DNA from: Deltaproteobacteria bacterium RIFCSPHIGHO2_02_FULL_44_16
GTDB lineage: Bacteria > UBA10199 > 2-02-FULL-44-16
NCBI GenBank assembly: GCA_001798185.1
Contig: MGRM01000005.1
Coordinates: forward strand, 19,925-83,924
Direction of reading: 5' to 3'
Length of the DNA stretch: 64,000 nt
Part shown: positions 26,759-62,756 of the stretch, one piece after another
How the letters are laid out: each line of letters begins with the position of its first letter
How positions within the stretch are numbered: the first letter of the stretch is position 1
The notes under the pieces: generated by a model
What the model was told of the DNA's origin: nothing
What the model saw: only the letters and a program-made list of their open reading frames with translations
Databases searched by the model: none
Made by a program: the position numbers and the translations under genes

Positions 26759-26764
26759 ACTTTC

Positions 26765-26823
26765 GTCATCCCCGCTTACGCGGGGATCTCATGAGATTCC
26801 CGCTTCCTGCATGCGGGAATGAC
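26765..26823. repeat. Double-hairpin palindromic repeat element, family 1, full copy.
   Basis: The sequence is gtcatccccgc-ttac-gcggggat ctcatg agattcccgc-ttcctgcat-gcgggaatgac. It lies intergenic between the dprE1-like and dprE2-like genes. Its ATG (26791) creates a spurious upstream ORF start. Confidence 0.7.
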
Positions 26824-26841
26824 AACCATGCGAGTGCACAT

Positions 26842-27576
26842 ATGAAAAATGTTCTGATTCTTGGCGCAACCTCTGCAATCGCTCACGAAGTAGCGAAGCT
26901 CTATGCTGATGAGCAAGCTCATCTCTTTTTGGTCGCAAGAAATGAATTCAAACTGGAAACAATCGCAAAGGATTTAATAGTACGAGGAGCAAAAGTAACA
27001 TCAGGTGTGGCGAACTTTCACGATTTTTCATCGCATCCAAGACTTCTTGAACAGATAAAAGAAAAACTTGGAAATATCGATGTGGTTCTTCTTGCCTATG
27101 GTTCTTTAGGGAATCAAGCGGAGAGTGAAAAGAATATCTCCGTTGCGCTTCAAGAAATAGAAACCAATTTTTTGACCGCATTTTCTCTGCTCTCTTTACT
27201 TGCTCATATCTTGGAAGCTCAGGGGAGTGGAACTCTTGCCGTGATCTCTTCTGTTGCTGGAGATCGTGGTCGTCAAAGTAATTATATCTATGGAACCGCA
27301 AAGGGGGCGCTCAATATTTTTTTACAGGGTTTGCGTAATCGTCTTTATAAAAAAGGAGTTCATGTGTTGACCATTAAACCCGGTTTTGTCGATACTCCTA
27401 TGACAACGCATCTCAAAAAAGGATTTTTATTTTCTTCTTCTCAAAAAGTGGGAAATGATATTTATAAAGCGATAGAAGAAAAAGAAGACGTCCTGTATAC
27501 TCCTCAATTTTGGAGAGCGATTATGTTTGTGATTCGAAATATTCCGGAAGCTCTTTTTAAAAGGCTCAACCTATGA
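26842..27576 (+). CDS. dprE2: Decaprenylphosphoryl-2-keto-ribose reductase-like SDR (DprE2 homolog).
   Basis: ILGATSAIA, AVISSVAGDRGRQSNYIYGTAKGALNIF and AIMFVIRNIPEALFKRL match DprE2 blocks. The real start is the ATG at 26842; the 26791 ORF start lies inside the repeat. Confidence 0.8.
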   Translation: MKNVLILGATSAIAHEVAKLYADEQAHLFLVARNEFKLETIAKDLIVRGAKVTSGVANFHDFSSHPRLLEQIKEKLGNIDVVLLAYGSLGNQAESEKNISVALQEIETNFLTAFSLLSLLAHILEAQGSGTLAVISSVAGDRGRQSNYIYGTAKGALNIFLQGLRNRLYKKGVHVLTIKPGFVDTPMTTHLKKGFLFSSSQKVGNDIYKAIEEKEDVLYTPQFWRAIMFVIRNIPEALFKRLNL

Positions 27577-33306: not shown

Positions 33307-34500
33307 ATGAAAATACTCCTCCTTACTTCTGGTATTCTCCCCGACACGCACAGTGGTATTGCAAAAGTCGCCTATTATACAGGACGAGAATTGTGTGAGA
33401 GTGGCCATCAGGTGGTTGTTTTAACACGGCGTTATAAGGAGCATCATGCAGTCACTGAGGAAATCAACGGAATGCATTATTATCGTATTCCTTATCCCGA
33501 TCGATGGGGAGTTTTTCATGTGACGTGGCCTCTGGTTGCTGCCGTCAAATCATGGATATGGCAAAAGCGGATTCACCGCATTCATCCGGATGTGGATGCG
33601 GTCTGGATTTTGAACCCATGGTGGACGTTGTTGCTCAACCCTCGTAAACTTTGGCCCCGTGCAAAGCTTATCTGTCAATTTTATGGGAATCCGTATGATG
33701 AAATCACCGCAAATAATGGCAAGACGTTCAAAGCTCGTCTTTTTGCACGACTCTACATGGCGGTTTCAAAACAGTGTATGCGTCTCTCTCATTATGTGGC
33801 GATGCCAAGTCAATTTGCCTATGATGACGCTGTTGCCATGATGGGGGCAAATGCCCAAAAAAAATTAGTTCTTATTCCGCATGGTGTGGACGTTGATTGT
33901 TATCGGACTGCATCGTCAGAGGAAAAACAGGATTTAAAGAAAAAACTTCAGTTGCCACATGACAGGCCCATCTTTATAACAGCTCGAGGGCTTAAACGTC
34001 GAACGGGAGTGGATAAACTCATTACCGCTGCATCTCTTTTAAAAAAAGAGGGATTCCTCTTTTATCTTGTGGTGATTGGAAAGGGCCCCATGAAAGAAGC
34101 CATTCAACAACAGATTCAGGCTCTGCGTCTCGACGATTCCGTAACATTGTTAAGTGATCTTTCCGAAGAAAAACTTGCAGCGTATTATCGAGCGAGTGAT
34201 GTTTTTGTCCTTCCCACACAAGCAGCTGAGGCTTTCGGGCTTGCAACGATTGAAGCCATTGCAGCAGGGCTTGTTGCGTTTGGCACGAACAATGGCGCAA
34301 CTCCAGAAATCCTCAACCGTTATCAGCCGGAATGGATTATTCCGGGAAGTGATGAAAAAAGTATTTATCATAAAATGAAAGAATTTTGTCGGGATCCGCA
34401 AAAGTTTACGATCCCTTATGAGGATATGAAAGCGATCACGGCCAAACATTATAGTTGGACAAGTGCAGCAAAGAAATTTGCTCATACTTGTTCCCATTGA
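33307..34500 (+). CDS. GT4 (GT-B) family glycosyltransferase.
   Basis: The C-terminal EAFGLATIEAIAAGLVAFGTNNGATPEIL is a GT1/GT4 donor-binding motif. Confidence 0.75.
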   Translation: MKILLLTSGILPDTHSGIAKVAYYTGRELCESGHQVVVLTRRYKEHHAVTEEINGMHYYRIPYPDRWGVFHVTWPLVAAVKSWIWQKRIHRIHPDVDAVWILNPWWTLLLNPRKLWPRAKLICQFYGNPYDEITANNGKTFKARLFARLYMAVSKQCMRLSHYVAMPSQFAYDDAVAMMGANAQKKLVLIPHGVDVDCYRTASSEEKQDLKKKLQLPHDRPIFITARGLKRRTGVDKLITAASLLKKEGFLFYLVVIGKGPMKEAIQQQIQALRLDDSVTLLSDLSEEKLAAYYRASDVFVLPTQAAEAFGLATIEAIAAGLVAFGTNNGATPEILNRYQPEWIIPGSDEKSIYHKMKEFCRDPQKFTIPYEDMKAITAKHYSWTSAAKKFAHTCSH

Positions 34501-34510
34501 AATAAACAAA

Positions 34511-36427
34511 ATGTATTATTTCTTTCAGAAAAAATGGAGATGGTTCAAAAAGCACCTTATCGGTTGTTATCGATTACTCCGATATGGATCTTTCGAAAAA
34601 GTTGCATTTTTTGAGATCACGACTCCTGAAAATATTTTTGGACCTTCATTTTTTGACTTTATTGCTTGTATCCCCCGTGTTCTTCAAGAGATGGCATGGA
34701 CCTTGGTTCGGACATATCAAACAACATTTTGGGAATCCTGCGTTCTGAAGCCCGATCATCTCTCTCGTCCTTTTGAAGGAGATTATGGAAAGTTTCGAGT
34801 GAGAAGCATTTATAGGAATGCTTTTTCCCTTTTTCACTCACGTTGCGGGAAAATACATCTCGATCTTGCAAATGATTCGGATGCGGAAGGTTTTTATTTT
34901 TCTATTGGAAAACAATTTATCACAATGAAAAAAGGCGTTTTGGAAATTTTTCTTGAAAGCGATGGAAATTCAACCAAAATATTTTCGAAACCCTTACAAA
35001 TGCTTCGTCATAATTGGAACTGGTTCTATTTTTCTTTGGATACTTTGAAGAACATCTCCAAGCACTCTCATTATATTGGCGCAAAATATGATTTTAGGTG
35101 GAATCTTAGCGAGAAAAAGAGAAAGGTATTTATTTCTACGCTTATAATCAAAAGAAAAAAACAAGAAAGAATTTTCCTTCTTCTTGTTGCTGATGCTGTG
35201 CGTCCATCAGATATAGGACTGTATGGTCAATCCTCTTTGACCCCTCATCTCGATACATTTTTTTCTTCGGGTGCAGTTTTCCGAAATAGTTTTGCGCAAA
35301 GCAATTGGACTCTTCCTGTCTTTGCCTCTCTAGCAACGTCTCAATATGCTTCACAGCACGGGGTTGTTGATCCAGACATCTACTTGCGATGTCTTCCACC
35401 TCATGTTCCGACATTAGCGGAACTTATGCGTGCAAATGGTTTTTTTACATATGCTTCTGTGGCACACCATCGTTGCAATCATTCCATTGGTCACCATCGA
35501 GGTTATGAATATTTTGATTATTCGCAAACAGTAGAGGTGAAATATAACTCCATGGGAATCCCTGGAAAAAATAATATGTACCGGCAACTTCAAAACCTTT
35601 GTGCGCGATTGGATAATTTCCGTGGCGCTGATTTTTTTGGAATGGTTCATTTTTTTGATACACATATTCCTTATCTTTATAATCGTAATGAACTTAATAC
35701 ACGTCATCTTCTTTTTCAGAAATCAGTGGACCAATGTGTCATGGAATCCCTTTCTCATAAATTGAAAGGAGAAGAATATCACTATCTTCTTTATAGATAT
35801 CAGATGCGATTAGCTGAGCTGGATCAAGCTCTTCTCAAAGTATTTAGGATCCTTAAAAAAAGAGAGAAAGTAACTGTCATTTTTATGTCGGATCATGGTT
35901 TTTCTTTTGAAAATCCGCTTGCTTGGGATTTGTCTTTTGATAAAATCGAAACTCCCTTTTTAATCCGCTCCAATGAGTTTGATCTTCAACGAGGAATACA
36001 GAATCGTATGGTTGAGTCTTCGCTTGATGTTCTTCCAACAATAACAAACCTTTATAATATCCAAGATTCTGTTCTGCGATCTGGAACTCCTTTATTTGAT
36101 CATGTGGGGAAAATAATATTAAAAGAATATGCAATTTCAGAGCACGTCTATGACGACATTTATCAGTTGCGTCTCATCGGAAAAGAAAAACTCTCCCTTC
36201 TTTTTGAAACAAGCCGACATCGAAAGACAGGATCAATTGATATTGATGGAATGAGGTTGAAAAACTGTTGTTATCAAGGACTTTCACCGAGTATCGGGAA
36301 CCATCTCTTTTTAAGTTTTCTTGAAAAAGCCAAGCTTCCATTTTCTTTAAAAAAGAAATTACAACAACTGATCAGTCAAAATGCACTTCAAGATCAACCT
36401 GAAGTTGCAAGTGAAGGAGCTCTATGA
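34511..36427 (+). CDS. Sulfatase-like (alkaline-phosphatase-superfamily) protein, paralog 2.
   Basis: It is collinear with paralog 1 (LLLVADAVRPSDIGLYGQ, SNWTLPVFASLATSQYASQHGVVDPD, FFGMVHFFDTHIPY). The start was moved to the ATG at 34511. Confidence 0.65.
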   Translation: MYYFFQKKWRWFKKHLIGCYRLLRYGSFEKVAFFEITTPENIFGPSFFDFIACIPRVLQEMAWTLVRTYQTTFWESCVLKPDHLSRPFEGDYGKFRVRSIYRNAFSLFHSRCGKIHLDLANDSDAEGFYFSIGKQFITMKKGVLEIFLESDGNSTKIFSKPLQMLRHNWNWFYFSLDTLKNISKHSHYIGAKYDFRWNLSEKKRKVFISTLIIKRKKQERIFLLLVADAVRPSDIGLYGQSSLTPHLDTFFSSGAVFRNSFAQSNWTLPVFASLATSQYASQHGVVDPDIYLRCLPPHVPTLAELMRANGFFTYASVAHHRCNHSIGHHRGYEYFDYSQTVEVKYNSMGIPGKNNMYRQLQNLCARLDNFRGADFFGMVHFFDTHIPYLYNRNELNTRHLLFQKSVDQCVMESLSHKLKGEEYHYLLYRYQMRLAELDQALLKVFRILKKREKVTVIFMSDHGFSFENPLAWDLSFDKIETPFLIRSNEFDLQRGIQNRMVESSLDVLPTITNLYNIQDSVLRSGTPLFDHVGKIILKEYAISEHVYDDIYQLRLIGKEKLSLLFETSRHRKTGSIDIDGMRLKNCCYQGLSPSIGNHLFLSFLEKAKLPFSLKKKLQQLISQNALQDQPEVASEGAL

Positions 36428-37125
36428 ATTTTACTGAATTTTGCGCGAAATCTTATCCTGAAAAATCAGTGTTTGATCGAAAACAATTTGACCCGTTTAC
36501 GAATTTCGTCAAATGGTTTGCGATGCGTTTTGGGTATTTTCTTTTTCAAGGTGGTGTCACCGCAAATACGCTCGATGTTCTTGCTCTTTTACTTTCTTTC
36601 CTCGGTTTTTTCTTTTTCTCGACGGCAAGAGATGGACATATCGTGCTTCCTTTTCTTGGGATTGCACTGCTTTATTTTCATATTTTTGTTGATTTTGTGG
36701 ATGGCACCCTTGCCAAAGCTTCAGGAACGACGAGCCTTTTAGGACATTATCTGGACGAAATTGGTTGTGATATCGATCGTATGCTTTTGCTCGTTTTATT
36801 TGGTGTGTATACGGGGAAAATATTTTTTATTCTTGGTAATTGTTTTGCGGTTGGTATTCTCATTCGTTTAGCCCCCTTAACAAAAAAAGAACTTCCGACC
36901 ACAGGAAAAATCGGGGCGTTATGTCGTTTGTATGTCTACAAATACTCCTTTCTTTCAGTACGGTTTATGTTAGCGATTCTTCCCCTTTTATTGGGACTTG
37001 TTCTCTTGATGAGATGGGATCTTCAGTTGCTTTCAACGCTCCTCTCTCTTTTTTATGAGATCGCTGCAGTCGTTTGGCTTTTTTTATGTATTCCTCAATT
37101 TAAAGAGAAAGCGAAGGTGGTGTGA
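36424..37125 (+). CDS. CDP-alcohol phosphatidyltransferase family membrane protein.
   Basis: DFVDGTLAKASGTTSLLGHYLDEIGCDIDR fits the D(x)2DG(x)2AR...G(x)3D(x)3D motif. Confidence 0.7.
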   Translation: MNFTEFCAKSYPEKSVFDRKQFDPFTNFVKWFAMRFGYFLFQGGVTANTLDVLALLLSFLGFFFFSTARDGHIVLPFLGIALLYFHIFVDFVDGTLAKASGTTSLLGHYLDEIGCDIDRMLLLVLFGVYTGKIFFILGNCFAVGILIRLAPLTKKELPTTGKIGALCRLYVYKYSFLSVRFMLAILPLLLGLVLLMRWDLQLLSTLLSLFYEIAAVVWLFLCIPQFKEKAKVV

Positions 37126-38162
37126 TGACAATCAAAGTAGGTATCAATGGTCTGGGCCGGATCGGGCGTGCCATTGTACGCATTCTTCTTGAGCGCGCTG
37201 ATATTGAGATCGTGGCTGTCAATGATATCAATCCCGATATCGAAAATATGGCATATCTTCTGAAATATGATTCCACCTATGGGAAACTCCCGTTTTCTGT
37301 AACAACTGGCGAACATGAAATCATTATCGGAAATGAAAAGCGGATGCATATTTTTCATCATCATCTGATTACAGATGTTCCATGGGAGAAGTATGGAGTA
37401 GAAGTAGTCGTCGATTCCTCCGGGGTACGAAAAAATCTTTTGGAAGCGCGAAACCTCAAAGGGAGAGTCAAACGGTGTATTGTGACTCATTCACCTCCAT
37501 CTACCGACGTTGATCGAACGATTATTCTTGGAGCAAATGAGCAGGAATGGGATCCCAAAAAGGATTTTCTTCTCTCTAGTAGCATTTGTGATGCAAATGC
37601 TTTTGCTCCCGTTGCAAAAGTTCTAGATAATAGCTTCGGAATTACACACGGTTTTTTAACGACACTTCATCCGTGGCTCAACTATCAGAATCTTTTGGAT
37701 GGACCTTCGATTTCTTATGCAACGCCAGGAGAAATTCATGATTATTATGCCTTAGGGAGAGCAAGCACTGGTTCTCTTATTCCGAAAACAACTTCTGCTA
37801 TTAAGGCTTCGGAAGCAGTATTGAAAAGTCTTCGAGATAAATTTTTATCTATGTCGTATCGTGTGCCGACGATGATTGTTTCATCCGCTGATCTTTCCGT
37901 GCAGCTTGAAAAACAGACCACACTTGAAGAAGTCAAGCAGGCTTTTGAAGAGATGGCTCAAAACCAAAAGTGGAATATCATTTATAATAACAAAGAAGCC
38001 CTCGTTTCTACGGATTTTACGGGTTGCGCCTCTTCAGCGGTAGTCGACCATCGCTGGATGAGACTGAATGAACATAATTATTTAAAAATGGTCCTCTGGT
38101 ACGACAATGAGTGGGGTTACTCTTCCCGTGTTGTCGATCTCATTGCTTATATTTCACAATGA
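37125..38162 (+). CDS. Glyceraldehyde-3-phosphate dehydrogenase family (GAPDH/E4PDH-like) NAD-dependent dehydrogenase.
   Basis: The N-terminal IKVGINGLGRIGR motif is present. The catalytic Cys lies in SSSICDANAFAP and the conserved His in TTLHPW. Confidence 0.7.
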   Translation: MTIKVGINGLGRIGRAIVRILLERADIEIVAVNDINPDIENMAYLLKYDSTYGKLPFSVTTGEHEIIIGNEKRMHIFHHHLITDVPWEKYGVEVVVDSSGVRKNLLEARNLKGRVKRCIVTHSPPSTDVDRTIILGANEQEWDPKKDFLLSSSICDANAFAPVAKVLDNSFGITHGFLTTLHPWLNYQNLLDGPSISYATPGEIHDYYALGRASTGSLIPKTTSAIKASEAVLKSLRDKFLSMSYRVPTMIVSSADLSVQLEKQTTLEEVKQAFEEMAQNQKWNIIYNNKEALVSTDFTGCASSAVVDHRWMRLNEHNYLKMVLWYDNEWGYSSRVVDLIAYISQ

Positions 38163-38926
38163 TTATTCCAAAATGTATTGCTTTTGATTTTGATGGTGTC
38201 CTCTGCGATTCTTTAGATGAGACCATGGTTGTTTCCTATTATGCTTATGGTACGTTACATGAATTAAATCGGATACATCCTTATAGCTGTGATCATGTTC
38301 CTCAGGAACTCGCAAAAATATTTTTCCATTTCCGACCACTGGTACGAGTTGCAGAGGAATATTATCTTCTGTGGGCGCTCATCCTTGAACGCGCAGATCT
38401 CAAAGAGACAGAGCCGCTTTGTGAACAAGCTCAGCACATTCCGTTTCCAAAGCAACAATTTCGCGAGCTTTTTTTTCAAGAGAGGAAAAATTGGAGAGCC
38501 AACAATGAAGCATCATGGAAGAGGCATCTCTCACTTTATCCGGAAATGAAACTTACCTTAAAAATTTTAAAAGATCGTGAGACTCCTACTTTTATTGTTT
38601 CATCTAAAGATGAAGCCGCGATACGTCAAATTCTTTCCTTGCATGATGTTTCATGGCGAGCTGAAGATATTTTTGGTGCCGAAAAAAACCTTGATAAGGA
38701 TCGACTTTTTCAGTTGTTATTGAAAGTCAAACAGCTTTCTTCTTCTGAACTTTTTTTTCTTGATGATAATTTAGTGAATCTTCGCTTGGCAAAGCGTATT
38801 GGCATACAGGGAGCAATGGCAGCGTGGGGTTATAATTTTAAACACGAACAGAAAATAGCCCTCGATGAGGGATTTGAAATTTTTCAACTTAAAGACATCC
38901 ACACACGTATTCATTATGTTTCATGA
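38159..38926 (+). CDS. HAD superfamily hydrolase.
   Basis: IAFDFDGVLCDS is HAD motif I (DxDG). It overlaps the upstream gene in an ATGA junction. Confidence 0.65.
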   Translation: MIIPKCIAFDFDGVLCDSLDETMVVSYYAYGTLHELNRIHPYSCDHVPQELAKIFFHFRPLVRVAEEYYLLWALILERADLKETEPLCEQAQHIPFPKQQFRELFFQERKNWRANNEASWKRHLSLYPEMKLTLKILKDRETPTFIVSSKDEAAIRQILSLHDVSWRAEDIFGAEKNLDKDRLFQLLLKVKQLSSSELFFLDDNLVNLRLAKRIGIQGAMAAWGYNFKHEQKIALDEGFEIFQLKDIHTRIHYVS

Positions 38927-39638
38927 ATTGTCATTAAAACAGTATAGTCTTCTCAATTCTCATTACCGTATGATAGAGATAAATAATGTATTGTATCTTG
39001 AAAAAAAGATTACTCTTCATCCCTCATGGGGAAGACCTCATGTTGAAGCGCTTTTTGAGCTCACGCTCACCTATATTGAACAATTGCAGAAAGCGAATAT
39101 TTATTTTCCTGCTGTCAAAACTGCAACTAGAGGAGAAAATTATTTTCTCTTTTTGTGTGAATATAAAGGAATCAATGGGGTTCAGTATATAGAGGAGTAT
39201 GGGTTTCCCATGTTTCTTGCTCCAGGTGGCTTTTTGAATCAAATGTTTGAAATCATTCGTCAAGCGCAACATCAAAAAATTTCTCTCGATCCCCATATCA
39301 AAAATTTTGTCTTTGATGGAGAAAAAGTTTGGTATGTTGATTTTTCCCCGCCGTGGGGAAAGGAATATTATCAGTTACGTTTTTCAGTTGCTTCAGGTGA
39401 AGAAAAAAAAATTCTTCGTTCCTTTTTTTCCTGTTTTGAACCAAAACAACTAGGGTATCATGCAGCAAGTGATCTTCTCAAAACTGACTCTTCATCTCTT
39501 GCGATGATGCCGAAAATCTATGATGCATTGCATAAGCGAGGTATGGTCACGAGTTTGTATGAATATTTTCTGGAAGAGGGAAGCAGAATTCGTGAGGCTG
39601 AAGCAACTCGCGAGATGAAGGACCTTTTCCTTTTATAA
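38916..39638 (+). CDS. Putative kinase with a protein-kinase-like fold (APH/choline-kinase family).
   Basis: DPHIKNFVFDGEKVWYVDF resembles an HxDxxxxN catalytic loop followed by a DFG-like IDF motif. Confidence 0.4.
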   Translation: MFHELSLKQYSLLNSHYRMIEINNVLYLEKKITLHPSWGRPHVEALFELTLTYIEQLQKANIYFPAVKTATRGENYFLFLCEYKGINGVQYIEEYGFPMFLAPGGFLNQMFEIIRQAQHQKISLDPHIKNFVFDGEKVWYVDFSPPWGKEYYQLRFSVASGEEKKILRSFFSCFEPKQLGYHAASDLLKTDSSSLAMMPKIYDALHKRGMVTSLYEYFLEEGSRIREAEATREMKDLFLL

Positions 39639-39666
39639 TAAGTTTTACCTTGATAGGAGATTTTTT

Positions 39667-40563
39667 ATGAAGAGACGGCTGCAATTATTACTGTATTCAA
39701 TGCGTTCGCAACTTGCACATTTTCCAGGTATGTTTGCTTTACTGAAGATTTTCATGCTGTTTTTACCCAAAAATTTGAAAGCGAATTATTATGGCGTAAC
39801 CATGTATATCGATTCTCGAGATCTTCGCTCAATGAAGGAAGCTTTTTTAAAATCTCCTTATGAAAACAAAATGCATGAAACTTTTAACAATGTTCTTAAA
39901 GCAGGTATGTCAGTTGTTGATATAGGTGCACATATTGGATTGTTTTCGCTTATTGCAGGTCAAAAAGTTGGAGCAGAAGGGCATGTGTATGCTTTTGAAC
40001 CCATGCCCAGATGTTATGAATTACTGCAAAAGAACATTCAACTTTATAATCTCAATAACGTGGAAGCAATTCAATCCATTGTGACGAATAAACAAGGGAA
40101 AACGGAATTGTGGATGGATAAATATTATTCGATTCTGGGTTCGCTTCATAAAGACAATCTTATGAATAAGGGAGAAAAAGTTGAAGTGGATGCTATAACC
40201 CTTGATCATTTTTTTCTCGGCACAGATAGTCATGAGCGTCGTATAGATATTATTAAAATGAATATTCAGGGTGCTGAAGGGTTAGTGATTGATGGGGCAA
40301 AGCAATTACTTCGCTCAAAAGGACCAACCATATTTATGGAGTTTTGGCCTTTTGGCTTAAAAAAAATGGGGAGTGATCCAGAGCAACTCTTCGATACGTT
40401 AACGGGCTATGGGTATCAGGTTTATAGGATCCATATGGATGATGCCAGTTTAAAACCGATGAAGAAAAGTGACATTTTCCCCCTCTCTGATTTTTATATG
40501 AAAAAATCAGTAGCAATGTATTTGCTGTGGCAAATGCCCAGAACAAATGAGTTGTCTCTATGA
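39667..40563 (+). CDS. FkbM family methyltransferase.
   Basis: VVDIGAHIGLFSLIAG...VYAFEPMPRCYELLQKN is the FkbM (Methyltransf_21) signature. Confidence 0.7.
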   Translation: MKRRLQLLLYSMRSQLAHFPGMFALLKIFMLFLPKNLKANYYGVTMYIDSRDLRSMKEAFLKSPYENKMHETFNNVLKAGMSVVDIGAHIGLFSLIAGQKVGAEGHVYAFEPMPRCYELLQKNIQLYNLNNVEAIQSIVTNKQGKTELWMDKYYSILGSLHKDNLMNKGEKVEVDAITLDHFFLGTDSHERRIDIIKMNIQGAEGLVIDGAKQLLRSKGPTIFMEFWPFGLKKMGSDPEQLFDTLTGYGYQVYRIHMDDASLKPMKKSDIFPLSDFYMKKSVAMYLLWQMPRTNELSL

Positions 40564-41441
40564 AAACTCTCTTTCGTTTTTTAAAACGTGCTGGTTTGGG
40601 TCGGGTTCCTGGTTTGCTGCAGCTCTATAATTTTCTCTATAGTATTTTTATTCGATTCTCTCGCATCGACCCTATTGTTCATCTTGACGGACAAAAAATT
40701 CTGGTAAGCAAAGAGGATTTGTCTACTTCAAGAAGATTATTGGTATATGGTGAACATGTTCAAGAAACAGCAGAATTTCTCAAAAATATTGTGAAAGAGG
40801 GAATGATCGTAGCTGATATCGGGGCGAACATTGGTTATTATACATTACTTTCAGCAAAGCGCGTTGGGACGAAGGGGCGTGTTTATGCTTTTGAGCCGGA
40901 TCCCCGTTGTGTTGAGATTTTACAAAAAAATATTTTGCTCAACGCTTATTCAAACATTTCTATTGTGCAGAATGCTGTTTCTCATACAACTGGAAAGACA
41001 ATTCCAGTCTATCTCGATAAACATCATTTTTCTCTCACATCTTTAGCAAAAGAGAATGTAACTACCACTGAAGAAAAAATCGAAATTACCACTATCTCTT
41101 TGGACGATTTTTTTGAGAAACAAATTGGCAATAGTCGTTTGGATTTTGTAAAGATGAATATTCAAGGGGCTGAAGGTTATGTCATTGAAGGTGCGAAAAA
41201 ATTGTTTCAAAAGAATAACCTCACCTTGATTACGGAATTTTGGCCGGAGGGTCTGGAAAAGTGCGGGACGGATCCACAAAAACTTTTGTTGATGTTGAAA
41301 GAGTTAGGTTATACGTGGAGACCTGTTGGTCATAATGAGGAAAAGAAGAAATCATATTCCATTGGTGAGATTATTTCTCTGGGAAACAAGTTTATTCACC
41401 AAAAAAAGAAATCTCTCCATCTTGTTGTTTCAAGAGTTTAA
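40560..41441 (+). CDS. FkbM family methyltransferase, tandem paralog.
   Basis: VADIGANIGYYTLLSAK...VYAFEPDPRCVEILQKN is collinear with the upstream paralog. It overlaps the upstream gene in an ATGA junction. Confidence 0.7.
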   Translation: MKTLFRFLKRAGLGRVPGLLQLYNFLYSIFIRFSRIDPIVHLDGQKILVSKEDLSTSRRLLVYGEHVQETAEFLKNIVKEGMIVADIGANIGYYTLLSAKRVGTKGRVYAFEPDPRCVEILQKNILLNAYSNISIVQNAVSHTTGKTIPVYLDKHHFSLTSLAKENVTTTEEKIEITTISLDDFFEKQIGNSRLDFVKMNIQGAEGYVIEGAKKLFQKNNLTLITEFWPEGLEKCGTDPQKLLLMLKELGYTWRPVGHNEEKKKSYSIGEIISLGNKFIHQKKKSLHLVVSRV

Positions 41442-41444
41442 TTT

Positions 41445-42173
41445 ATGAAAACATTGATTCTGGCTGCAGGTCTTGGCTCACGGCTTCAGCATAAAACACA
41501 ACATTCACCTAAAGCTTTAGTTCGCATCCATGACAAGCCAATTTTGGCCTATCAGTTAGATGCCTTGTCAGCGTGTGGCATGAAGGATATCGGTATTGTT
41601 CTTGGATATCAGGGAGAAATGATCAAAGAGTATATCGAGCAAAATTATTCTTTTCTTCATACGACTTTTTTTTGGAATCATGACTATGCTTCTTCCAATA
41701 GTTCCTATTCCTTTTGGATGGCAAAAGATTGGATTGCGGATGAAAGTTATATTCACTTGAATTGCGATATTCTTTTTTCACCCACATTGTTACAGAAACT
41801 TCTGAAGCACAGGCATGAAAACGTCATTGCGATAAAACGAGATGTGTCGCTGGGTGGACGCCTTGAACATGTCGTGGTGAAGGGTGAGCAGATCCAAAAA
41901 ATGTCGATCGAATATGATCCGCAAGCGACAGGAAAAGCCTTTGGCCTGGCGAAGCTTGGAACTTTGAGTCACGTTATTTTACAGAAGCTAATTGCAACGT
42001 ATCTTGCTCAAGGGGATAAAAATCAAAATTACTTTGGGATGATCCGTCATGCCATTCATCAAAAAATTCCTTATTATGTACTCGATGCCACGCATGAAGA
42101 ACTTTTTGAAGTGAACACCTTAGAAGATTACAAAAAAGTAGAAGAGTATGTAGCGCACAAAAAACTATGTTGA
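41445..42173 (+). CDS. Nucleotidyltransferase (LicC/IspD-like NTP-transferase for a phospho-alcohol or sugar phosphate).
   Basis: MKTLILAAGLGSRL...PKALV is a nucleotidyltransferase G-rich loop. The protein is 242 aa. Confidence 0.65.
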   Translation: MKTLILAAGLGSRLQHKTQHSPKALVRIHDKPILAYQLDALSACGMKDIGIVLGYQGEMIKEYIEQNYSFLHTTFFWNHDYASSNSSYSFWMAKDWIADESYIHLNCDILFSPTLLQKLLKHRHENVIAIKRDVSLGGRLEHVVVKGEQIQKMSIEYDPQATGKAFGLAKLGTLSHVILQKLIATYLAQGDKNQNYFGMIRHAIHQKIPYYVLDATHEELFEVNTLEDYKKVEEYVAHKKLC

Positions 42174-42928
42174 AATCATTTCTTCTTGCCCTTTTTCCCT
42201 TTCGATTTGCACTTCTTCTCTTTTTTTTCGGTCTTCTCTTTTTATTTGTCCGAAAAGAGCGTTTGGCAAAGAGAGTGCTTGTGGTGAGTTTTTGTATTCT
42301 TTTTTTGGGGAGTCTTTCTGGTTTTTCTGGGCGGCTTCTTTTCAATCTTGAATCGCGGTATCCTTCATTTGATGTTTTGATCCAAAAGGAAAATCTGGAA
42401 AATATAATGTACATTGTTGTCTTAGGAGATGGACATGTTGAAGAAGTTTCCTGGCCATTGACGAGTCAACTCAGCGATGAAATGCTGAAACGAACAGTTG
42501 AAGGGATGCGACTGCATCTGCAGTTGCCGCATACCAAAATTGTGGTTTCAGGTGGTAAGCTTACGAAAAAAAGTGAGGCTGAGGTGATGCAAGAGTTGCT
42601 CGTTTCACTCGGGATTTCAGCAGACGACATTATCACCGAAAGAAAATCTGCAAATACCTACGAACAAGCACTTTTTTTGAAGCCGATCTTACGGCAGCAG
42701 CGGTTTATTCTGGTGACTTCCGCCAGACATATGCCTCGTGCCATGAAACTTTTTCAAGAACATGACCTCCAGCCTCTGGCAGCGCCAACTGCACATTATG
42801 TTTTGAGTACCAAAAGTTTTATTCCCAGCTTAAGACATTTTCAAAAACTTGAAATTGCCCTCTATGAATATTTAGGATTGATAAAAAATGCTTTTTTGCA
42901 AAGAACCGAACATGAATCTTCCAACTGA
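42167..42928 (+). CDS. DUF218 (YdcF/ElyC) family protein.
   Basis: An N-terminal transmembrane helix is followed by a VVLGDGH...SGG...LVTSARHMPRA core. Confidence 0.55.
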   Translation: MLKSFLLALFPFRFALLLFFFGLLFLFVRKERLAKRVLVVSFCILFLGSLSGFSGRLLFNLESRYPSFDVLIQKENLENIMYIVVLGDGHVEEVSWPLTSQLSDEMLKRTVEGMRLHLQLPHTKIVVSGGKLTKKSEAEVMQELLVSLGISADDIITERKSANTYEQALFLKPILRQQRFILVTSARHMPRAMKLFQEHDLQPLAAPTAHYVLSTKSFIPSLRHFQKLEIALYEYLGLIKNAFLQRTEHESSN

Positions 42929-43973
42929 AAAAATAAGCGTTGTTATTCCTTGTTACAATGAAGAAAGATACATTGGAAAGTGTCTTGATTCGATTCTTGC
43001 GAATGATTATCCACATCACTCTCTTGAAATTATCGTTGTGGATGGCCGGAGTGATGATAGAACAAGAGATATTGTTCATCTCTATCAAGAAAAATATTCT
43101 TTTCTTCGTTTATTAGAGAACCCGGAACGTTTTACCACCGCGGCGCTGAATAAAGGTATTCAAGCTGCATCGGGCGAGATCATTTTAAGAATAGATGCCC
43201 ATTCTGTCTATCCCACCGAGTACATTTCAAAATGTGTGAAATATTTGCGACAGTATGATGCAAGTAATGTAGGAGGTGTTTGGCGTATTCGTCCTGGAGA
43301 AGAAACTTTTATCGCGAAAGCCATTGCTCTTGCTCTGGCGCATCCCTTTGGTATTGGGCTTGCTCGATATCGAACCGTCAAAGTGTCGCATTCTCCGCAA
43401 GAGGTGGATACCGTTCCCTATGGCTGTTTTCCGAAAAAGATTTTTGAACACATCGGTTATTTTAGAGAAGATCTGCCTCGTTGGAAAGGGAGGTGCAATG
43501 AAGACATTGATTTTAATAAACGGATTCGAGAGAGTGGAGGAAAAATTTTTCTCATTCCGGAAATTATTGTCTATTACTATGCACGTGGGACTTTAAAGTC
43601 TTTTTTACAACATAATTTTAATAATGGAGTTCTTGTCACCATGCCACTCGGAAATAACGATATGGATTTTTCGTATCGACATCTGGTTCCGGGGTTTTTT
43701 GTTCTGAGCTTTATGACATTGATACCTCTCTCTTTTATAAGTCCTTTTTTTCGTACTCTTTTTTTCTTTCCTATGGCACTTTATCTCAGCCTCAGTCTTT
43801 ATTTTTCCTTTAAAAGAATGTTCGTCTACAAAAATCCTCTTTATTTCTTTTTCATGCCCGTTGTCTTTTTTGTTCTTCATCTCAGTTATGGCTTGGGCTC
43901 TCTCTACGGTCTTTTAAAAGCATTTCGCATGAAATGGCAAAATGCGGTGAAGTTGGAGAAACCTCTTTCATGA
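42912..43973 (+). CDS. GT2 family glycosyltransferase with a C-terminal membrane domain.
   Basis: ISVVIPCYNEERYI...IIVVDGRSDD is the GT2 signature. C-terminal hydrophobic helices are present. Confidence 0.75.
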   Translation: MNLPTEKISVVIPCYNEERYIGKCLDSILANDYPHHSLEIIVVDGRSDDRTRDIVHLYQEKYSFLRLLENPERFTTAALNKGIQAASGEIILRIDAHSVYPTEYISKCVKYLRQYDASNVGGVWRIRPGEETFIAKAIALALAHPFGIGLARYRTVKVSHSPQEVDTVPYGCFPKKIFEHIGYFREDLPRWKGRCNEDIDFNKRIRESGGKIFLIPEIIVYYYARGTLKSFLQHNFNNGVLVTMPLGNNDMDFSYRHLVPGFFVLSFMTLIPLSFISPFFRTLFFFPMALYLSLSLYFSFKRMFVYKNPLYFFFMPVVFFVLHLSYGLGSLYGLLKAFRMKWQNAVKLEKPLS

Positions 43974-45433
43974 CCATTTCTTCAAAACAGCTTATTCGAA
44001 ATATTACGAGCATTACATGCGCCTATGTAGGACGGAAAGCTCTGACGTTTATCTATTTTACGCTCATTGCACGATATAGCGGTGTTGAAGTGACAGGCGC
44101 TTACTTTTTACTCGTTTCTTTTGCAGCTGTCATCACATCATTTTTGGATTTTGGTTTTTCAAACACTCTTATTCGCGAAGCTTCAAAAGCTCCCGAAAAA
44201 CTCGCCTTCTATTTAAATAATATTCTAACAGCAAAAATTTTTCTCAGTGCTCTCGCCATTGTTGCGGGGACTTTTATTTTGATTTTTTTCGACTATAGTT
44301 TGCGCATAAAAATTTTGGTTGCGATGCTCGTTGCGACCATGATTTTCGAAACATTTGCGGAAACTTTTTTTTCATGTGCGCGTGTGCGTCATCACATGAA
44401 AACAGAAGCTCAAACACTTGTTATTGGACAATTTATTACGCTCATGGTGGGAGGACTCTCTCTTTGGCTTTATCCAAGTCTTTATTTGTTGATCTTGGCG
44501 CTTCTTTTAAATCAGATGTGTCATTTTTTCCGTTCATACTATCTGGTAGTGCATACCCTGTCTCTTCCATTGCAACTTTCATTTGATAAAACCACGTTCA
44601 TCTCTTTAACAAAAATTGCAATTCCGTTTCATATCGCGGTTTTATTTGAACAAATTCTTTATGCGGATGCTTTTATTCTGAAATATTTAACCGAAGATAG
44701 AATAGTTGGTCTTTTTGGAGTTTCCCACGCTCTTATCAACGCCTTTCGTTTTATTCCCATTGTTCTTGGCTTAGCTATTTTCCCGGCATTAAGTTCCTTC
44801 CATGCTTTTTCACCTTCAAAATTTAAAAAACTTTTTCAAGGTTTCTATACAGTTCTTTTAAGTTTAGTGGCGCCATTGGCCATTTTTCTTCTTCTCTTTT
44901 CTTCAGAGGCGATCGATCTTCTCTTTGGAGAAAAATATATTGAGTCAAGTAGAACGCTTCAAATTTTAGCACTTTCACTTCTCCCGCTTTTTTTAAGCTA
45001 TCCTTTTAGTAAATTACTGGATGCTTGTAACAAACAACTTCTGAATGCAACGTTGAAGGGAATATCACTTGTTATTCACCTCACCTTGACTGTTGTTCTT
45101 ATTCCTTCCTTTGGTGCTGTCGGGATCGCTCTTTCCTGTCTTTTGAGTTATACATTTCTTTTCCTTGCCTCCATGCATTATGGATCAAAAATGCTTCCTC
45201 ATGTTTATTCATTTTGTTTCAAGAATATGTTGTATGTCATGTTAGCATCCTGTTTTATGGGGTATTGTCTTTTTATTTTAAAACTGTTTCTGCATCCTTT
45301 TGTTCTCATTCCTTTTGGATTCTTCCTTTATATATCTTCTCTCATTCTTTTAAGAGGAATGACCCGAAGCGGTTTTAATAAAGATGAAGCTTATAGGGAA
45401 TGGTTATTACTTGCGAAACGTGCTTTGCGATAA
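43970..45433 (+). CDS. Wzx-type flippase / polysaccharide biosynthesis protein (MOP superfamily), second copy.
   Basis: The 488-aa protein has about 12 transmembrane helices and an N-terminus typical of Wzx. It overlaps the upstream gene in an ATGA junction. Confidence 0.6.
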   Translation: MTISSKQLIRNITSITCAYVGRKALTFIYFTLIARYSGVEVTGAYFLLVSFAAVITSFLDFGFSNTLIREASKAPEKLAFYLNNILTAKIFLSALAIVAGTFILIFFDYSLRIKILVAMLVATMIFETFAETFFSCARVRHHMKTEAQTLVIGQFITLMVGGLSLWLYPSLYLLILALLLNQMCHFFRSYYLVVHTLSLPLQLSFDKTTFISLTKIAIPFHIAVLFEQILYADAFILKYLTEDRIVGLFGVSHALINAFRFIPIVLGLAIFPALSSFHAFSPSKFKKLFQGFYTVLLSLVAPLAIFLLLFSSEAIDLLFGEKYIESSRTLQILALSLLPLFLSYPFSKLLDACNKQLLNATLKGISLVIHLTLTVVLIPSFGAVGIALSCLLSYTFLFLASMHYGSKMLPHVYSFCFKNMLYVMLASCFMGYCLFILKLFLHPFVLIPFGFFLYISSLILLRGMTRSGFNKDEAYREWLLLAKRALR

Positions 45434-52688: not shown

Positions 52689-52715
52689 TCAATGCACAAC
52701 AAGGAGAATGTTATG

Positions 52716-53828: not shown

Positions 53829-53858
53829 TTAATACGTGACAAAATGGTCAAAAACAAA

Positions 53859-62722: not shown

Positions 62723-62756
62723 GGTCTCGACCCTAGGGTCAAGACCCTAGGTTTCG
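62719..62756. terminator. Tandem palindromic hairpin shared by two convergent genes, a putative bidirectional terminator.
   Basis: ttt-agggtc-tc-gaccct-agggtc-aa-gaccct-agg-tttcg: the stems embed both stop codons. The U-tracts are weak. Confidence 0.35.

What the first reader, a model, noticed from the sequence alone, without database searches (positions are those of the whole stretch)
36424..42173. Unusual phospho-head-group module: CDP-alcohol phosphatidyltransferase, GAPDH-like dehydrogenase, HAD, kinase-fold protein, two FkbM methyltransferases and a LicC-like nucleotidyltransferase
A bona fide GAPDH-family enzyme (GINGLGRIGR, catalytic Cys and His retained) sits in the middle of a glycan operon, which is atypical. 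It is flanked by a CDP-alcohol phosphotransferase (DG..AR...G...D...D motif), an HAD phosphatase, a putative small-molecule kinase, a nucleotidyltransferase and two tandem FkbM O-methyltransferases. This gene set resembles the logic of the lic (phosphocholine) or CDP-glycerol/ribitol decoration pathways. With a triose/tetrose-phosphate dehydrogenase it suggests an NDP-activated, possibly O-methylated, glycerate/glycerol/erythronate-phosphate substituent transferred onto the polymer. The myo-inositol-1-phosphate synthase at the window end raises inositol phosphate as an alternative head group. I cannot assign the chemistry from sequence alone.
Basis: inference. Interest (0 to 1): 0.65.

Follow-up and report, generated by a model that had tools for sequence, protein, structure and literature searches.

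The report
Probable phosphoglycerate-adding module for a surface sugar polymer
A conserved seven-gene block inside a giant surface-polysaccharide locus of an uncultured bacterium most likely makes an activated form of glyceric acid phosphate (CDP-glycerate) and attaches it to the sugar polymer, using a rebuilt copy of a glycolysis enzyme and a previously undescribed small kinase.

Summary
All seven genes exist at the stated coordinates and are translationally coupled within a GT4-to-Wzx operon.

The GAPDH-like protein is not a housekeeping gap. It belongs to a distinct subfamily that keeps Cys149, His176 and Arg231. Four phosphate-site residues are replaced: S148I, T150D, T179L and R195L.

The subfamily is co-conserved across dozens of metagenomic polysaccharide loci with three partners:
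- a LicC-like cytidylyltransferase;
- an AF2299/DIPPS-like CDP-alcohol phosphotransferase;
- a kinase.

The kinase is either the window's type, classical glycerate kinase class I, or class II. The window's type has a protein-kinase-like fold and belongs to a family of only 123 clusters in 1.84 billion. This displacement argues that the window kinase phosphorylates glycerate.

The closest precedent is the Caulobacter CpgD/CpgA pair, which makes CDP-glycerate and is proposed to transfer phosphoglycerate.

Best reading (inferred): triose(-P) to glycerate to 2-phosphoglycerate to CDP-glycerate to phosphoglycerate on the glycan. Methylation is a variable add-on.

The inositol alternative is not supported.

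I rate this a new variant of a known kind, of moderate interest.

The parts
33307..34500 (+). GT4 glycosyltransferase. It is the conserved upstream neighbour of the module and probably builds the acceptor sugar.
   Evidence: NCBIfam GT4 hits. It is 43-49% identical and in the same position in L001 and L167, and present in L089.
34463..36427 (+). Soluble sulfatase-fold (alkaline-phosphatase superfamily) protein. It has Thr where sulfatases carry the formylglycine Cys/Ser. It is an operon neighbour, not part of the conserved module.
   Evidence: Pfam Sulfatase E 3e-27. It has a 50% identical paralog at 22165-24030. No homolog in related loci.
36424..37125 (+). Divergent CDP-alcohol phosphotransferase of about 6 TM helices. 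Proposed to transfer the phospho-head group from the CDP donor to the acceptor.
   Evidence: PF01066 at 24.2 bits against 22. A clade profile hits AF2299 at E 9e-8, then PIPS, PssA, DIPPS and PgsA. Orthologs of 43-57% identity lie directly upstream of the GAPDH-like gene in L001, L089, L167 and L168. A GT2+CDP-OH fusion occurs in L141.
37122..38162 (+). GAPDH-fold dehydrogenase of a remodelled subfamily. Proposed non-phosphorylating oxidation of glyceraldehyde(-3-P) to glycerate or 3-PG.
   Evidence: Identity is 53-69% to subfamily members and at most 42% to housekeeping GAPDH. It carries S148I, T150D, T179L and R195L plus a 10-aa insertion, each conserved in at least 90% of the subfamily.
38159..38926 (+). 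HAD phosphatase (ORF opens at 38111; probable ATG at 38159). Proposed to remove the C3 phosphate, giving free glycerate or glyceraldehyde. It is an accessory part, absent from some loci.
   Evidence: HAD_2/Hydrolase with motifs DFDGV and LDDN. Orthologs of 31-37% identity lie directly downstream of the GAPDH-like gene in L003, L005, L163, L166 and L167. An NTase+HAD fusion occurs in L165.
38916..39638 (+). Small protein-kinase-like-fold kinase ('KIN'; ORF opens at 38865). Proposed glycerate kinase.
   Evidence: AF2 model pLDDT 95.9. Foldseek gives APH(3')-Ia and protein kinases. Invariant residues are K, DPHxKN and D. The family has 123 clusters in 1.84e9. An NTase is nearby in 19 of 22 well-flanked loci. 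GK-I or GK-II occupies its place in L003, L005, L163 and L164.
39667..40563 (+). FkbM-family O-methyltransferase 1. It sits in the variable 'methylation slot'.
   Evidence: TIGR01444 at 99.9 bits. The slot holds two TylF-type MTs in L089 and a B12 radical-SAM enzyme in L167.
40560..41441 (+). FkbM-family O-methyltransferase 2.
   Evidence: TIGR01444 at 99.7 bits. It is 41% identical to the FkbM gene of L001.
41445..42173 (+). LicC-like (COG1213-type) nucleotidyltransferase. Proposed CTP:phosphoglycerate cytidylyltransferase.
   Evidence: LicC 1JYK at E 8e-21 over the full length. GxGSRL and Lys motifs are present. Orthologs of 52-54% identity occur in L167 and L168.
42167..42928 (+). DUF218/ElyC-like protein. 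It is conserved directly downstream of the NTase in the closest loci; its role is unknown.
   Evidence: PF02698 E 6e-32. ElyC at 148 bits against a cut-off of 205. Same position in L089 and L167.
42888..43973 (+). GT2 glycosyltransferase, syntenic in the closest loci.
   Evidence: It is 52-58% identical in L167 and L168.
43934..45433 (+). Wzx-type flippase, syntenic in the closest loci.
   Evidence: It is 31-44% identical in L167 and L168.

Best explanation
The block is a 'lic-like' head-group pathway whose head group is most likely D-glycerate phosphate.

Proposed steps (inferred unless marked otherwise):
1. A triose is oxidised to the acid by the remodelled GAPDH-fold dehydrogenase. The dehydrogenase has lost its phosphate sites, so it is probably non-phosphorylating and may use free glyceraldehyde.
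2. The HAD phosphatase removes the C3 phosphate, before or after the oxidation, giving free D-glycerate.
3. The small kinase-fold protein phosphorylates glycerate, probably at O-2.
4. The LicC-like enzyme joins phosphoglycerate to CTP to give CDP-glycerate.
5. The small membrane CDP-alcohol phosphotransferase transfers phosphoglycerate, releasing CMP, onto a hydroxyl of the lipid-linked repeat unit built by the flanking GT4 and GT2. The Wzx flippase then exports the unit.
6. The two FkbM O-methyltransferases occupy a variable 'methylation slot'. They methylate either the glycerate moiety or a neighbouring sugar.

Shown: gene content, folds and families, active-site substitutions, and co-conservation and synteny.

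Inferred: substrates, the order of steps, the phosphate position, the acceptor, and the methylation target.
For: 1. Synteny. L167 has GT4, CDP-OH, GAPDH-like, HAD, KIN, [B12-rSAM], NTase, DUF218, GT2 and Wzx in the window's order, at 35-68% identity. L089, L001 and L168 share the core.

2. Independent look-ups. Eight sit next to an NTase and/or a kinase and/or a CDP-OH or TagF-like transferase in glycan loci. The ninth contig is only 4.3 kb; it shows a Wzx-type flippase gene upstream and a window-type HAD ORF downstream.

3. Kinase displacement.
- L163: CDP-OH, NTase, GAPDH-like, HAD, GK-I (PF02595, E 3e-98).
- L003 and L005: GAPDH-like, HAD, GK-I.
- L164: NTase, GK-II (DUF4147+MOFRL), SDR, DHQS, then GAPDH-like. 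Compare L154-L156: NTase / KIN, SDR, DHQS, GAPDH-like.
- All characterised GK-II enzymes make 2-PG (PMC2063504).

4. The kinase. It has a protein-kinase/APH fold with an intact catalytic set. It is paired with the NTase in 19 of 22 non-redundant, well-flanked loci.

5. The NTase. Its best solved relative is LicC.

6. Precedent. Caulobacter CpgD, a LicC/IPCT-family enzyme, makes CDP-glycerate and prefers D-2-PG. Its partner CpgA carries the CDP-alcohol transferase domain (PMC12275187, PMC13228409, PMC11324152).

7. The transferase clade. Its profile matches AF2299 best and PgsA worst. The GT2+CDP-OH fusion in L141 points to a glycan acceptor.

8. Chemistry. 2- and 3-phosphoglyceric acid and glyceramide 2-phosphate are known glycan substituents (PMC9912281, PMC6222762).

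9. A possible specificity residue. Lys189 of KIN is present in all 20 GAPDH-associated kinases. It is Asn in 78% of those associated with a glycerol-1-P-dehydrogenase-like gene. It lies on the same helix face as invariant H182 and D186.
Against: - No enzyme was assayed, and no organism carrying the module is cultured.
- 2-PG and 3-PG are central metabolites, so a dedicated route looks redundant.
- The kinase and its NTase are almost indistinguishable in conserved positions, whether they sit with the GAPDH-like gene or with a G1PDH-like/Rpe/RpiB set. This could mean that one common substrate is unrelated to either dehydrogenase.
- The kinase is fused to ribulose-P epimerase or to a phosphoribosyltransferase in two proteins. 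That hints at pentose chemistry.
- The HAD is absent from several core loci: L001, L089, L091 and L168.
- The transferase's Pfam score is marginal and its motif is imperfect.
- The methylation target is unknown.
Confidence: 0.55

Rival explanations
1. The logic is the same (kinase, then cytidylyltransferase, then CDP-alcohol transferase), but the head group is a different small alcohol. Candidates are glycerol 2-phosphate (Gtp1-3-like), a pentitol or pentose derivative, lactate or glycolate. In this reading the GAPDH-like enzyme serves another step, for example making a phosphorylated acceptor alcohol, or tailoring the group after activation.
For: - KIN and its NTase share nearly all conserved positions between GAPDH-type loci and loci with a G1PDH-like gene plus HAD, Rpe and RpiB.
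- Rpe+KIN and PRTase+KIN fusions exist.
- CC_1152 (CpgD) is itself described as similar to Gtp2 of the CDP-2-glycerol pathway (PMC11324152).
- CDP-alcohol transferases often use phosphorylated acceptors followed by a phosphatase. This rests on established knowledge of PgsA, PIPS and DIPPS.
Against: - The window has no reductase that could make glycerol or a pentitol.
- GAPDH-family chemistry gives acids.
- Classical glycerate kinases replace KIN in syntenic loci.
- The Lys/Asn switch at KIN position 189 tracks the dehydrogenase type.
Confidence: 0.2
2. The dehydrogenase acts like erythrose-4-phosphate dehydrogenase. The head group is then a four-carbon aldonic acid phosphate (erythronate or threonate), with two hydroxyls O-methylated.
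For: - The protein scores 233 bits on the Epd model.
- Pentose-phosphate genes recur in the family: a split transketolase in the window and in six related loci, and Rpe/RpiB elsewhere.
- Erythronate has three hydroxyls, which would suit one phosphate plus two methyl groups.
Against: - The Epd score is lower than the GAPDH score, and both are far below their cut-offs.
- The split transketolase always sits next to DegT, several kb from the module. This suggests a separate sugar-tailoring unit.
- The displacing kinases belong to glycerate kinase families.
Confidence: 0.08
3. The acceptor is a membrane lipid, not the glycan. The module would then make a phosphoglycerate-headed lipid, as in Caulobacter ceramide phosphoglycerates. 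The lipid could be an end product or a donor for later transfer.
For: - The only characterised CDP-glycerate system decorates a lipid (PMC12275187).
- CDP-alcohol transferases are classically lipid-synthesis enzymes.
- A sulfatase-fold protein with a Thr nucleophile, as in the LtaS/EptA class, is translationally coupled upstream.
Against: - The genes sit between GT4 and DUF218, GT2 and Wzx in a conserved order.
- A GT2+CDP-OH fusion exists.
- A TagF-like enzyme replaces the CDP-OH transferase in L164.
- The sulfatase-fold protein has no membrane anchor and is not co-conserved.
- No ceramide genes were seen in the window.
Confidence: 0.12
4. The head group is inositol phosphate, made by the MIPS gene at the window end and attached through an IPCT/DIPPS-like pair.
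For: - MIPS is at 62747-63919.
- The NTase weakly matches the IPCT/DIPPS model, E 5e-12.
- The transferase weakly matches archaetidylinositol-phosphate synthase, and its clade profile matches AF2299 best.
- An IMPase-family gene lies next to one related module.
Against: - MIPS is 20 kb away, on the opposite strand, beyond Wzz, Wzi and a ChaN-like gene.
- No MIPS homolog occurs in any related locus.
- MIPS gives inositol 1-phosphate directly, so neither the kinase nor the dehydrogenase would be needed.
- LicC is a much better match for the NTase than IPCT.
Confidence: 0.03
5. The GAPDH-like gene is a housekeeping or spare gap paralog that lies in the locus by chance.
For: It has full-length GAPDH family domains with the catalytic Cys and His.
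Against: - It is below the equivalog cut-off.
- It is at most 42% identical to true GAPDHs, against 53-69% to subfamily members.
- Four phosphate-site residues are replaced throughout the subfamily.
- All nine looked-up subfamily members lie in a polysaccharide-type neighbourhood.
Confidence: 0.02

Closest known systems
Caulobacter crescentus CpgD/CpgA (CDP-glycerate synthesis and proposed phosphoglycerate transfer in ceramide diphosphoglycerate synthesis)
   Same: - It pairs a LicC/IPCT-family (COG1213) cytidylyltransferase with a CDP-alcohol phosphotransferase-domain membrane protein.
- The activated donor there is CDP-glycerate, with D-2-phosphoglycerate preferred (PMC12275187, PMC13228409, PMC11324152).
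- The window has the same enzyme pair.
   Different: - The acceptor there is a sphingolipid. Here the context is a Wzx-type polysaccharide operon.
- No dedicated phosphoglycerate supply is known in Caulobacter; the authors raise this as an open question. Here a dehydrogenase, a phosphatase and a kinase are built in, plus methyltransferases.
- Direct sequence comparison with CpgD and CpgA could not be made.
lic phosphocholine pathway (LicA kinase, LicC cytidylyltransferase, LicD transferase)
   Same: - The order is kinase, then cytidylyltransferase, then transfer to a glycan.
- The kinase has the same protein-kinase-like/APH fold class as LicA (LicA's fold is from my own knowledge).
- The NTase's best solved relative is LicC.
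   Different: - No LicD-type transferase is present; a CDP-alcohol phosphotransferase takes its place.
- The head group is made in the operon from a triose rather than imported.
- The kinase has no detectable sequence relation to choline kinases.
Pneumococcal Gtp1-Gtp3-Gtp2 pathway for CDP-2-glycerol (Wang et al. 2010, J Bacteriol; cited from memory, paper not held)
   Same: An oxidoreductase makes a free three-carbon compound, a kinase phosphorylates its O-2, and a LicC-like enzyme makes the CDP derivative. Related loci with a G1PDH-like gene, KIN and NTase look like this pathway.
   Different: - The window has a GAPDH-fold oxidising enzyme, not a reductase, so an acid rather than glycerol is expected.
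- Homology of KIN to Gtp3 was not testable.
Non-phosphorylative Entner-Doudoroff lower branch (glyceraldehyde dehydrogenase plus glycerate 2-kinase)
   Same: The proposed chemistry is glyceraldehyde to glycerate to 2-phosphoglycerate. Class II glycerate kinases of that branch occupy the kinase slot in a syntenic locus (PMC2063504).
   Different: - The dehydrogenase here has the GAPDH fold, not an ALDH or AOR.
- The purpose is biosynthetic, not catabolic.
- The window's kinase belongs to none of the three known glycerate kinase classes.
AF2299 / IPCT-DIPPS (soluble CDP-alcohol phosphotransferases of archaea and thermophiles)
   Same: It is the best solved relative of the transferase clade, E 9e-8. 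It is a small polytopic enzyme using polar CDP-alcohol donors together with a LicC/IPCT-type NTase.
   Different: - Those enzymes make compatible solutes from inositol phosphate, and the NTase is fused to them.
- Here the genes are separate, sit in a glycan operon, and show no MIPS linkage.

Membership tests
Type I phosphorylating GAPDH (TIGR01534 equivalog) | Whole-protein score at or above the curated cut-off | tested here: not met
   276.9 bits against a cut-off of 367.2. All other gap and epd equivalogs are also far below their cut-offs.
Type I phosphorylating GAPDH (TIGR01534 equivalog) | Catalytic Cys149 and His176, and the NAD-binding GxGxxG | tested here: met
   GINGLGRIGR, the Cys of SSSICDAN and the His of TTLHP align with canonical enzymes.
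Type I phosphorylating GAPDH (TIGR01534 equivalog) | Phosphate-site residues S148, T150, T179, R195 and R231 | tested here: not met
   S148I, T150D, T179L and R195L are conserved in at least 90% of about 115 subfamily members. Only R231 (and T208) is kept. There is also a 10-aa insertion.
Type I phosphorylating GAPDH (TIGR01534 equivalog) | Housekeeping genomic context | tested here: not met
   All nine looked-up subfamily members lie in a polysaccharide-type neighbourhood.
CDP-alcohol phosphotransferase superfamily (PF01066) | Pfam gathering score | tested here: met
   24.2 bits against 22, which is marginal. A clade profile hits AF2299 at E 9e-8 and also PIPS, PssA and DIPPS.
CDP-alcohol phosphotransferase superfamily (PF01066) | Signature D(x)2DG(x)2AR(x)8G(x)3D(x)3D | tested here: inconclusive
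   D90, D93, G94, G107 and D111 are invariant in the clade. Arg is Lys in the window (Lys or Arg across the clade). The last Asp is one residue further along and is Asn in L001.
Phospholipid synthases PgsA / PssA / PIPS (NCBIfam equivalogs) | Score at or above the equivalog cut-off | tested here: not met
   PssA scores 18.8 against 107, PIPS 19.2 against 170, and AIPS 35.9 against 180. There is no PgsA hit. PgsA is the weakest profile match, E 0.81.
LicC-type (COG1213) cytidylyltransferases | Full-length similarity, the N-terminal GxG(S/T)R motif and a catalytic Lys | tested here: met
   1JYK at E 8e-21 over residues 2-237. LAAGLGSRL and PK23 are invariant in the clade.
LicC-type (COG1213) cytidylyltransferases | CTP as the nucleotide and a small phospho-alcohol as substrate | not testable with these tools
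   This needs an enzyme assay.
CpgD/CpgA phosphoglycerate system | A LicC/IPCT-family NTase together with a CDP-alcohol-transferase-domain partner | tested here: met
   Both are in one operon. The family assignments of CpgD and CpgA come from PMC12275187 and PMC11324152.
CpgD/CpgA phosphoglycerate system | Orthology to CpgD, including the glycerate-pocket residues (Met147, Lys161, Trp201) | not tested
   The CpgD sequence and structures (10WG-10WK) were not in the searchable copies (one search lists no such chain).
CpgD/CpgA phosphoglycerate system | The product is CDP-glycerate | not testable with these tools
   It is inferred from glycerate kinases occupying the kinase slot.
Glycerate kinases class I (PF02595) and class II (DUF4147/MOFRL) | Sequence membership of the window kinase | tested here: not met
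   There are no Pfam or NCBIfam hits apart from a sub-threshold DUF6206 match. The fold is protein-kinase-like. The relation is functional displacement only.
lic phosphocholine system | LicD-type phosphotransferase present | tested here: not met
   No LicD domain was found among the 57 window ORFs scanned with Pfam.
HAD phosphatases | Motif I DxDx(T/V) and motif IV acidic pair | tested here: met
   DFDGV and LDDN are present. HAD_2 E 4e-11.
FkbM methyltransferases (TIGR01444) | Score above the cut-off | tested here: met
   99.9 and 99.7 bits against 37.7.

The most novel reading that the evidence does not exclude
Three linked claims make up the most novel reading.

1. The 235-aa kinase founds a fourth, non-homologous class of glycerate kinase, with a protein-kinase-like fold.
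2. The remodelled GAPDH-fold subfamily is a new non-phosphorylating glyceraldehyde(-3-P) dehydrogenase.
3. Together with a CpgD/CpgA-like pair, they form the so far unidentified genetic basis for phosphoglycerate substituents on bacterial and archaeal surface glycans. These substituents may be O- or C-methylated, and may be tandem where two transferases are present. The basis would be a modular toolbox that swaps its dehydrogenase and methylase to vary the head group.
Probability: 0.35. Interest if true: 0.75.

Novelty: new variant of a known kind. Interest (0 to 1): 0.55.

Why it matters
Phosphodiester-linked glyceric acid and glyceramide are known chemically on O-antigens. I found no paper that assigns genes to them.

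CDP-glycerate itself was described only in 2025, for a Caulobacter sphingolipid. Its authors asked whether a dedicated phosphoglycerate supply exists.

This module offers candidates for four things:
- that supply route;
- a glycan-directed phosphoglycerate transferase;
- a new kinase family;
- a GAPDH-fold enzyme with a changed reaction.

All four are cloneable and directly testable. The module is widespread in uncultured marine, groundwater and archaeal lineages. It therefore also gives a marker for annotating anionic surface decorations in metagenomes.

Tried and rejected
- The genome-contig scan with the GAPDH-like protein was swamped by the universal WYDNEWGY pattern. It returned only housekeeping GAPDHs of at most 42% identity. 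It served as an outgroup but gave no neighbourhoods.
- The word-indexed homolog search for the kinase found only 3 proteins. The exhaustive profile search was needed.
- The first structure prediction, with 4 sequences, was poor at pLDDT 52.7. It was repeated with 62 sequences.
- tblastn of the GAPDH-like protein against plasmids gave only canonical gapA.
- The Wang 2010 CDP-2-glycerol paper is not held.
- Names of kinase-family members are all 'hypothetical' and come from metagenomes.
- Literature searches for genes behind glycan phosphoglycerate found none.
- I considered a WbdD-like kinase-plus-methyltransferase chain terminator and rejected it. The kinase is tied to the NTase in 19 of 22 loci, and the locus is of the Wzx/Wzz type.
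- I considered the sulfatase-fold neighbour as the transferase and rejected it. It is soluble and not co-conserved.
- I considered the AsnB-like genes as glyceramide formers. This is left open, because they occur in both locus types.

Full report
**Observation.** The window is a very large surface-polysaccharide locus from a groundwater MAG labelled 'Deltaproteobacteria bacterium' (OGQ23328-OGQ23334).
- a small CDP-alcohol phosphotransferase (PF01066, marginal at 24.2 against 22 bits);
- a full-length GAPDH-family protein;
- an HAD hydrolase;
- a 234-257 aa protein with no family;
- two FkbM methyltransferases;
- an NTP_transf_3/NTP_transferase protein.

Starts and stops overlap by 4-62 nt, or are at most 28 nt apart, from the GT4 gene at 33307 to the SDR gene ending at 46183. 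The genes are therefore very likely co-transcribed. Consensus promoter and terminator scans were no better than shuffles.

**The GAPDH-like protein.** It scores 277 bits on the type I GAPDH model, whose cut-off is 367.
- It is 53-69% identical to at least 120 metagenomic clusters.
- It is at most 42% identical to housekeeping GAPDHs of reference genomes and plasmids.
- An alignment of about 115 subfamily members with six canonical enzymes shows that Cys149, His176, Thr208 and Arg231 are kept.
- Residues that bind the substrate phosphate and the inorganic phosphate are replaced in at least 90% of members: S148I, T150D, T179L and R195L. A177P, Y178W and D181Y also change, and there is a 10-residue insertion.

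My inference is that it remains a thiol-dependent aldehyde dehydrogenase but no longer performs the G3P/phosphate reaction of glycolysis. A non-phosphorylating oxidation, possibly of a non-phosphorylated aldehyde, is the simplest reading.

**The unknown protein.** A profile search of 1.84 billion cluster representatives found only 123 relatives. Those looked up are all hypothetical proteins from metagenomes and MAGs. With 62 sequences, AlphaFold gave a pLDDT 95.9 model. Its best solved matches are APH(3')-Ia and protein kinases. The invariant Lys, DPHxKN and a downstream Asp correspond to the kinase catalytic set. It is therefore a small-molecule kinase of the same fold class as choline kinase LicA.

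**The nucleotidyltransferase and the transferase.**
- The NTase's best solved relative is LicC (1JYK, E 8e-21, full length).
- The transferase clade profile matches AF2299 best (E 9e-8), then PIPS, PssA and DIPPS. PgsA is last at E 0.81.
- All phospholipid-synthase equivalogs are far below their cut-offs.

**Co-conservation.** Nine subfamily members, chosen mostly for contig length, were looked up. Eight sit in glycan loci next to an NTase and/or a kinase and/or a CDP-alcohol or TagF-like transferase. The ninth contig is only 4.3 kb and shows a Wzx-type flippase gene and an HAD-like ORF beside the GAPDH-like gene.
- The closest locus, L167, has GT4, CDP-OH, GAPDH-like, HAD, kinase, [B12 radical-SAM], NTase, DUF218, GT2 and Wzx in the window's order, at 35-68% identity.
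- L089 has the same order, with two TylF-type O-methyltransferases and no HAD.
- L168 and L091 show a minimal core of CDP-OH, GAPDH-like, kinase and NTase.

Starting from the kinase instead, 74 metagenome loci were recovered. Among 22 non-redundant loci with at least 3 kb on both sides, the counts are:

| Neighbour | Loci of 22 |
|---|---|
| Window-type NTase | 19 |
| Methyltransferase | 15 |
| CDP-OH transferase | 10 |
| Glycerol-1-phosphate-dehydrogenase-like gene | 9 |
| GAPDH-like gene | 7 |
| Dehydroquinate-synthase-like gene | 7 |

**What the head group is.** The key evidence is non-orthologous displacement of the kinase.
- In L163, L003 and L005 the GAPDH-like and HAD pair is followed by a class I glycerate kinase (PF02595, E 3e-98). 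In L163 the pair is preceded by CDP-OH and NTase.
- In L164 the order is NTase, class II glycerate kinase (DUF4147+MOFRL), SDR, DHQS, then GAPDH-like. This mirrors NTase / KIN, SDR, DHQS, GAPDH-like in L154-L156.
- All characterised class II enzymes make 2-phosphoglycerate, and the three known classes are unrelated to one another (PMC2063504).

The literature then gives a direct precedent. Caulobacter CpgD, a LicC/IPCT-family enzyme, makes CDP-glycerate and prefers D-2-phosphoglycerate (PMC12275187; structures in PMC13228409). Its partner CpgA (CC_1159) carries the CDP-alcohol transferase domain and is the predicted 2-phosphoglycerate transferase (PMC11324152). Phosphodiester-linked 2- and 3-phosphoglyceric acid and D-glyceramide 2-phosphate are known glycan substituents (PMC9912281, PMC6222762).

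I therefore propose these steps:
1. A triose(-P) is converted to glycerate by the GAPDH-like enzyme and the HAD.
2. The kinase makes 2-phosphoglycerate.
3. The NTase makes CDP-glycerate.
4. The CDP-OH transferase puts phosphoglycerate on the lipid-linked repeat unit.

A GT2+CDP-OH fusion (L141) and a TagF-like enzyme in place of the CDP-OH transferase (L164) both favour a glycan acceptor.

**Caveats.**
- The kinase and NTase next to GAPDH-like genes differ at only one or two consistently conserved positions from those next to G1PDH-like, HAD, Rpe and RpiB sets. Either the two contexts use very similar three-carbon substrates, glycerate and glycerol, or they share one substrate that neither dehydrogenase makes.
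- In favour of the first option, kinase residue 189 is Lys in all 20 GAPDH-associated members and Asn in 78% of the others. It sits one turn from invariant His182 and Asp186. This is weak evidence.
- Fusions of the kinase to ribulose-phosphate epimerase and to a phosphoribosyltransferase are unexplained.
- 2-PG and 3-PG are abundant metabolites, so the need for a dedicated route is not obvious.
- The slot between kinase and NTase holds two FkbM enzymes in the window, two TylF-type enzymes in L089 and a B12 radical-SAM enzyme in L167. Methylation is therefore part of the design, but its target is unknown.
- Nothing here was assayed.

**Alternatives.**
- Inositol phosphate is not supported. MIPS lies beyond Wzz and Wzi on the other strand, and no related locus has one.
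- An erythronate-type acid or another small alcohol cannot be excluded.
- A lipid acceptor cannot be excluded.
- A chance housekeeping paralog is excluded for practical purposes.

**Verdict.** The system is a new variant of a known kind, a lic/Gtp/Cpg-type head-group activation. It has two unusual parts: a remodelled GAPDH-fold dehydrogenase, and a new kinase family that may be a fourth class of glycerate kinase. The module is widespread but confined so far to uncultured lineages. Interest is moderate at 0.55. Confidence in the phosphoglycerate assignment is about 0.55, and in the general kinase, cytidylyltransferase and CDP-alcohol-transferase logic about 0.85.

Noticed in passing
window 24027-27576: A UbiA prenyltransferase fused to an HAD domain is followed by an FAD_binding_4 (DprE1-like) gene and an SDR (DprE2-like) gene. 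This resembles the mycobacterial decaprenyl-phospho-arabinose route, here in a 'Deltaproteobacteria' MAG.
   Followed up: no
window 22165-24030 and 34463-36427: There are two 50% identical soluble sulfatase-fold proteins with Thr where sulfatases carry the formylglycine Cys/Ser (NWTLP(V/A)FAS). Each overlaps by 4 nt the start of a polytopic membrane transferase, one UbiA-like and one CDP-OH-like. Related loci have no homolog.
   Followed up: partly
window 3405-8647; L108 7050-9278; L165 11700-14500: A single 724-aa protein fuses pyruvate kinase, PUA_2 and ATP sulfurylase. An APS kinase and a sulfotransferase follow it. The same fusion occurs in L108, and PK sits next to ATP sulfurylase and APS kinase in L165.
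   Followed up: partly
window 52692-55788; L145, L150, L155, L156, L158, L159: A DegT aminotransferase is followed by a split transketolase (N and C halves as separate genes). The same trio, at 46-63% identity, lies a few kb from the kinase/NTase module in six marine loci. It is probably a separate sugar-tailoring unit.
   Followed up: partly
window 14450-16237: This is a TagF-like CDP-glycerol-type glycerophosphotransferase domain protein. It could be a second user of the CDP-activated head group. A TagF-like gene replaces the CDP-OH transferase next to the GAPDH-like gene in L164.
   Followed up: no
L087/L090 1-2328: Genes resembling the Campylobacter O-methyl phosphoramidate pathway lie beside the module. 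They are a PPDK-like kinase with a CTP_transf_like part, a GATase, an HIT-like protein and an NTase.
   Followed up: no
P0139 (L087 8001-9227), P0153: The kinase family occurs fused to a type I phosphoribosyltransferase domain and, separately, to ribulose-phosphate 3-epimerase. The glycerate model does not explain these fusions.
   Followed up: partly
L104-L131 (type A loci): A recurrent marine arrangement reads G1PDH-like, kinase, NTase, HAD, Rpe, RpiB. It usually comes with a soluble sulfatase-fold gene, an FkbM-family or class I methyltransferase, a Wzx and a second type of CDP-OH transferase. It may be a CDP-2-glycerol-like or pentitol pathway.
   Followed up: partly
L001, L092, L094, L144, L148, L165, L167, L168: B12-binding radical-SAM enzymes, likely C-methylases, recur next to the module. 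Some loci also have DHQ-synthase-like plus SDR pairs, whose product is unknown.
   Followed up: no
window 91-2644 and 27573-29780: The locus also contains a NeuB plus CTP_transf_3 set (nonulosonic acid) and a 735-aa FG-GAP/MopE-motif protein.
   Followed up: no
L005 6225-12916; L150 12291-16398: In these loci the GAPDH-like and HAD pair sits next to a CMP-Kdo-synthetase-type cytidylyltransferase and an aldolase-type gene (HpcH in L005, HMGL-like in L150). This suggests the pair can also feed an unusual CMP-activated keto-acid sugar.
   Followed up: no
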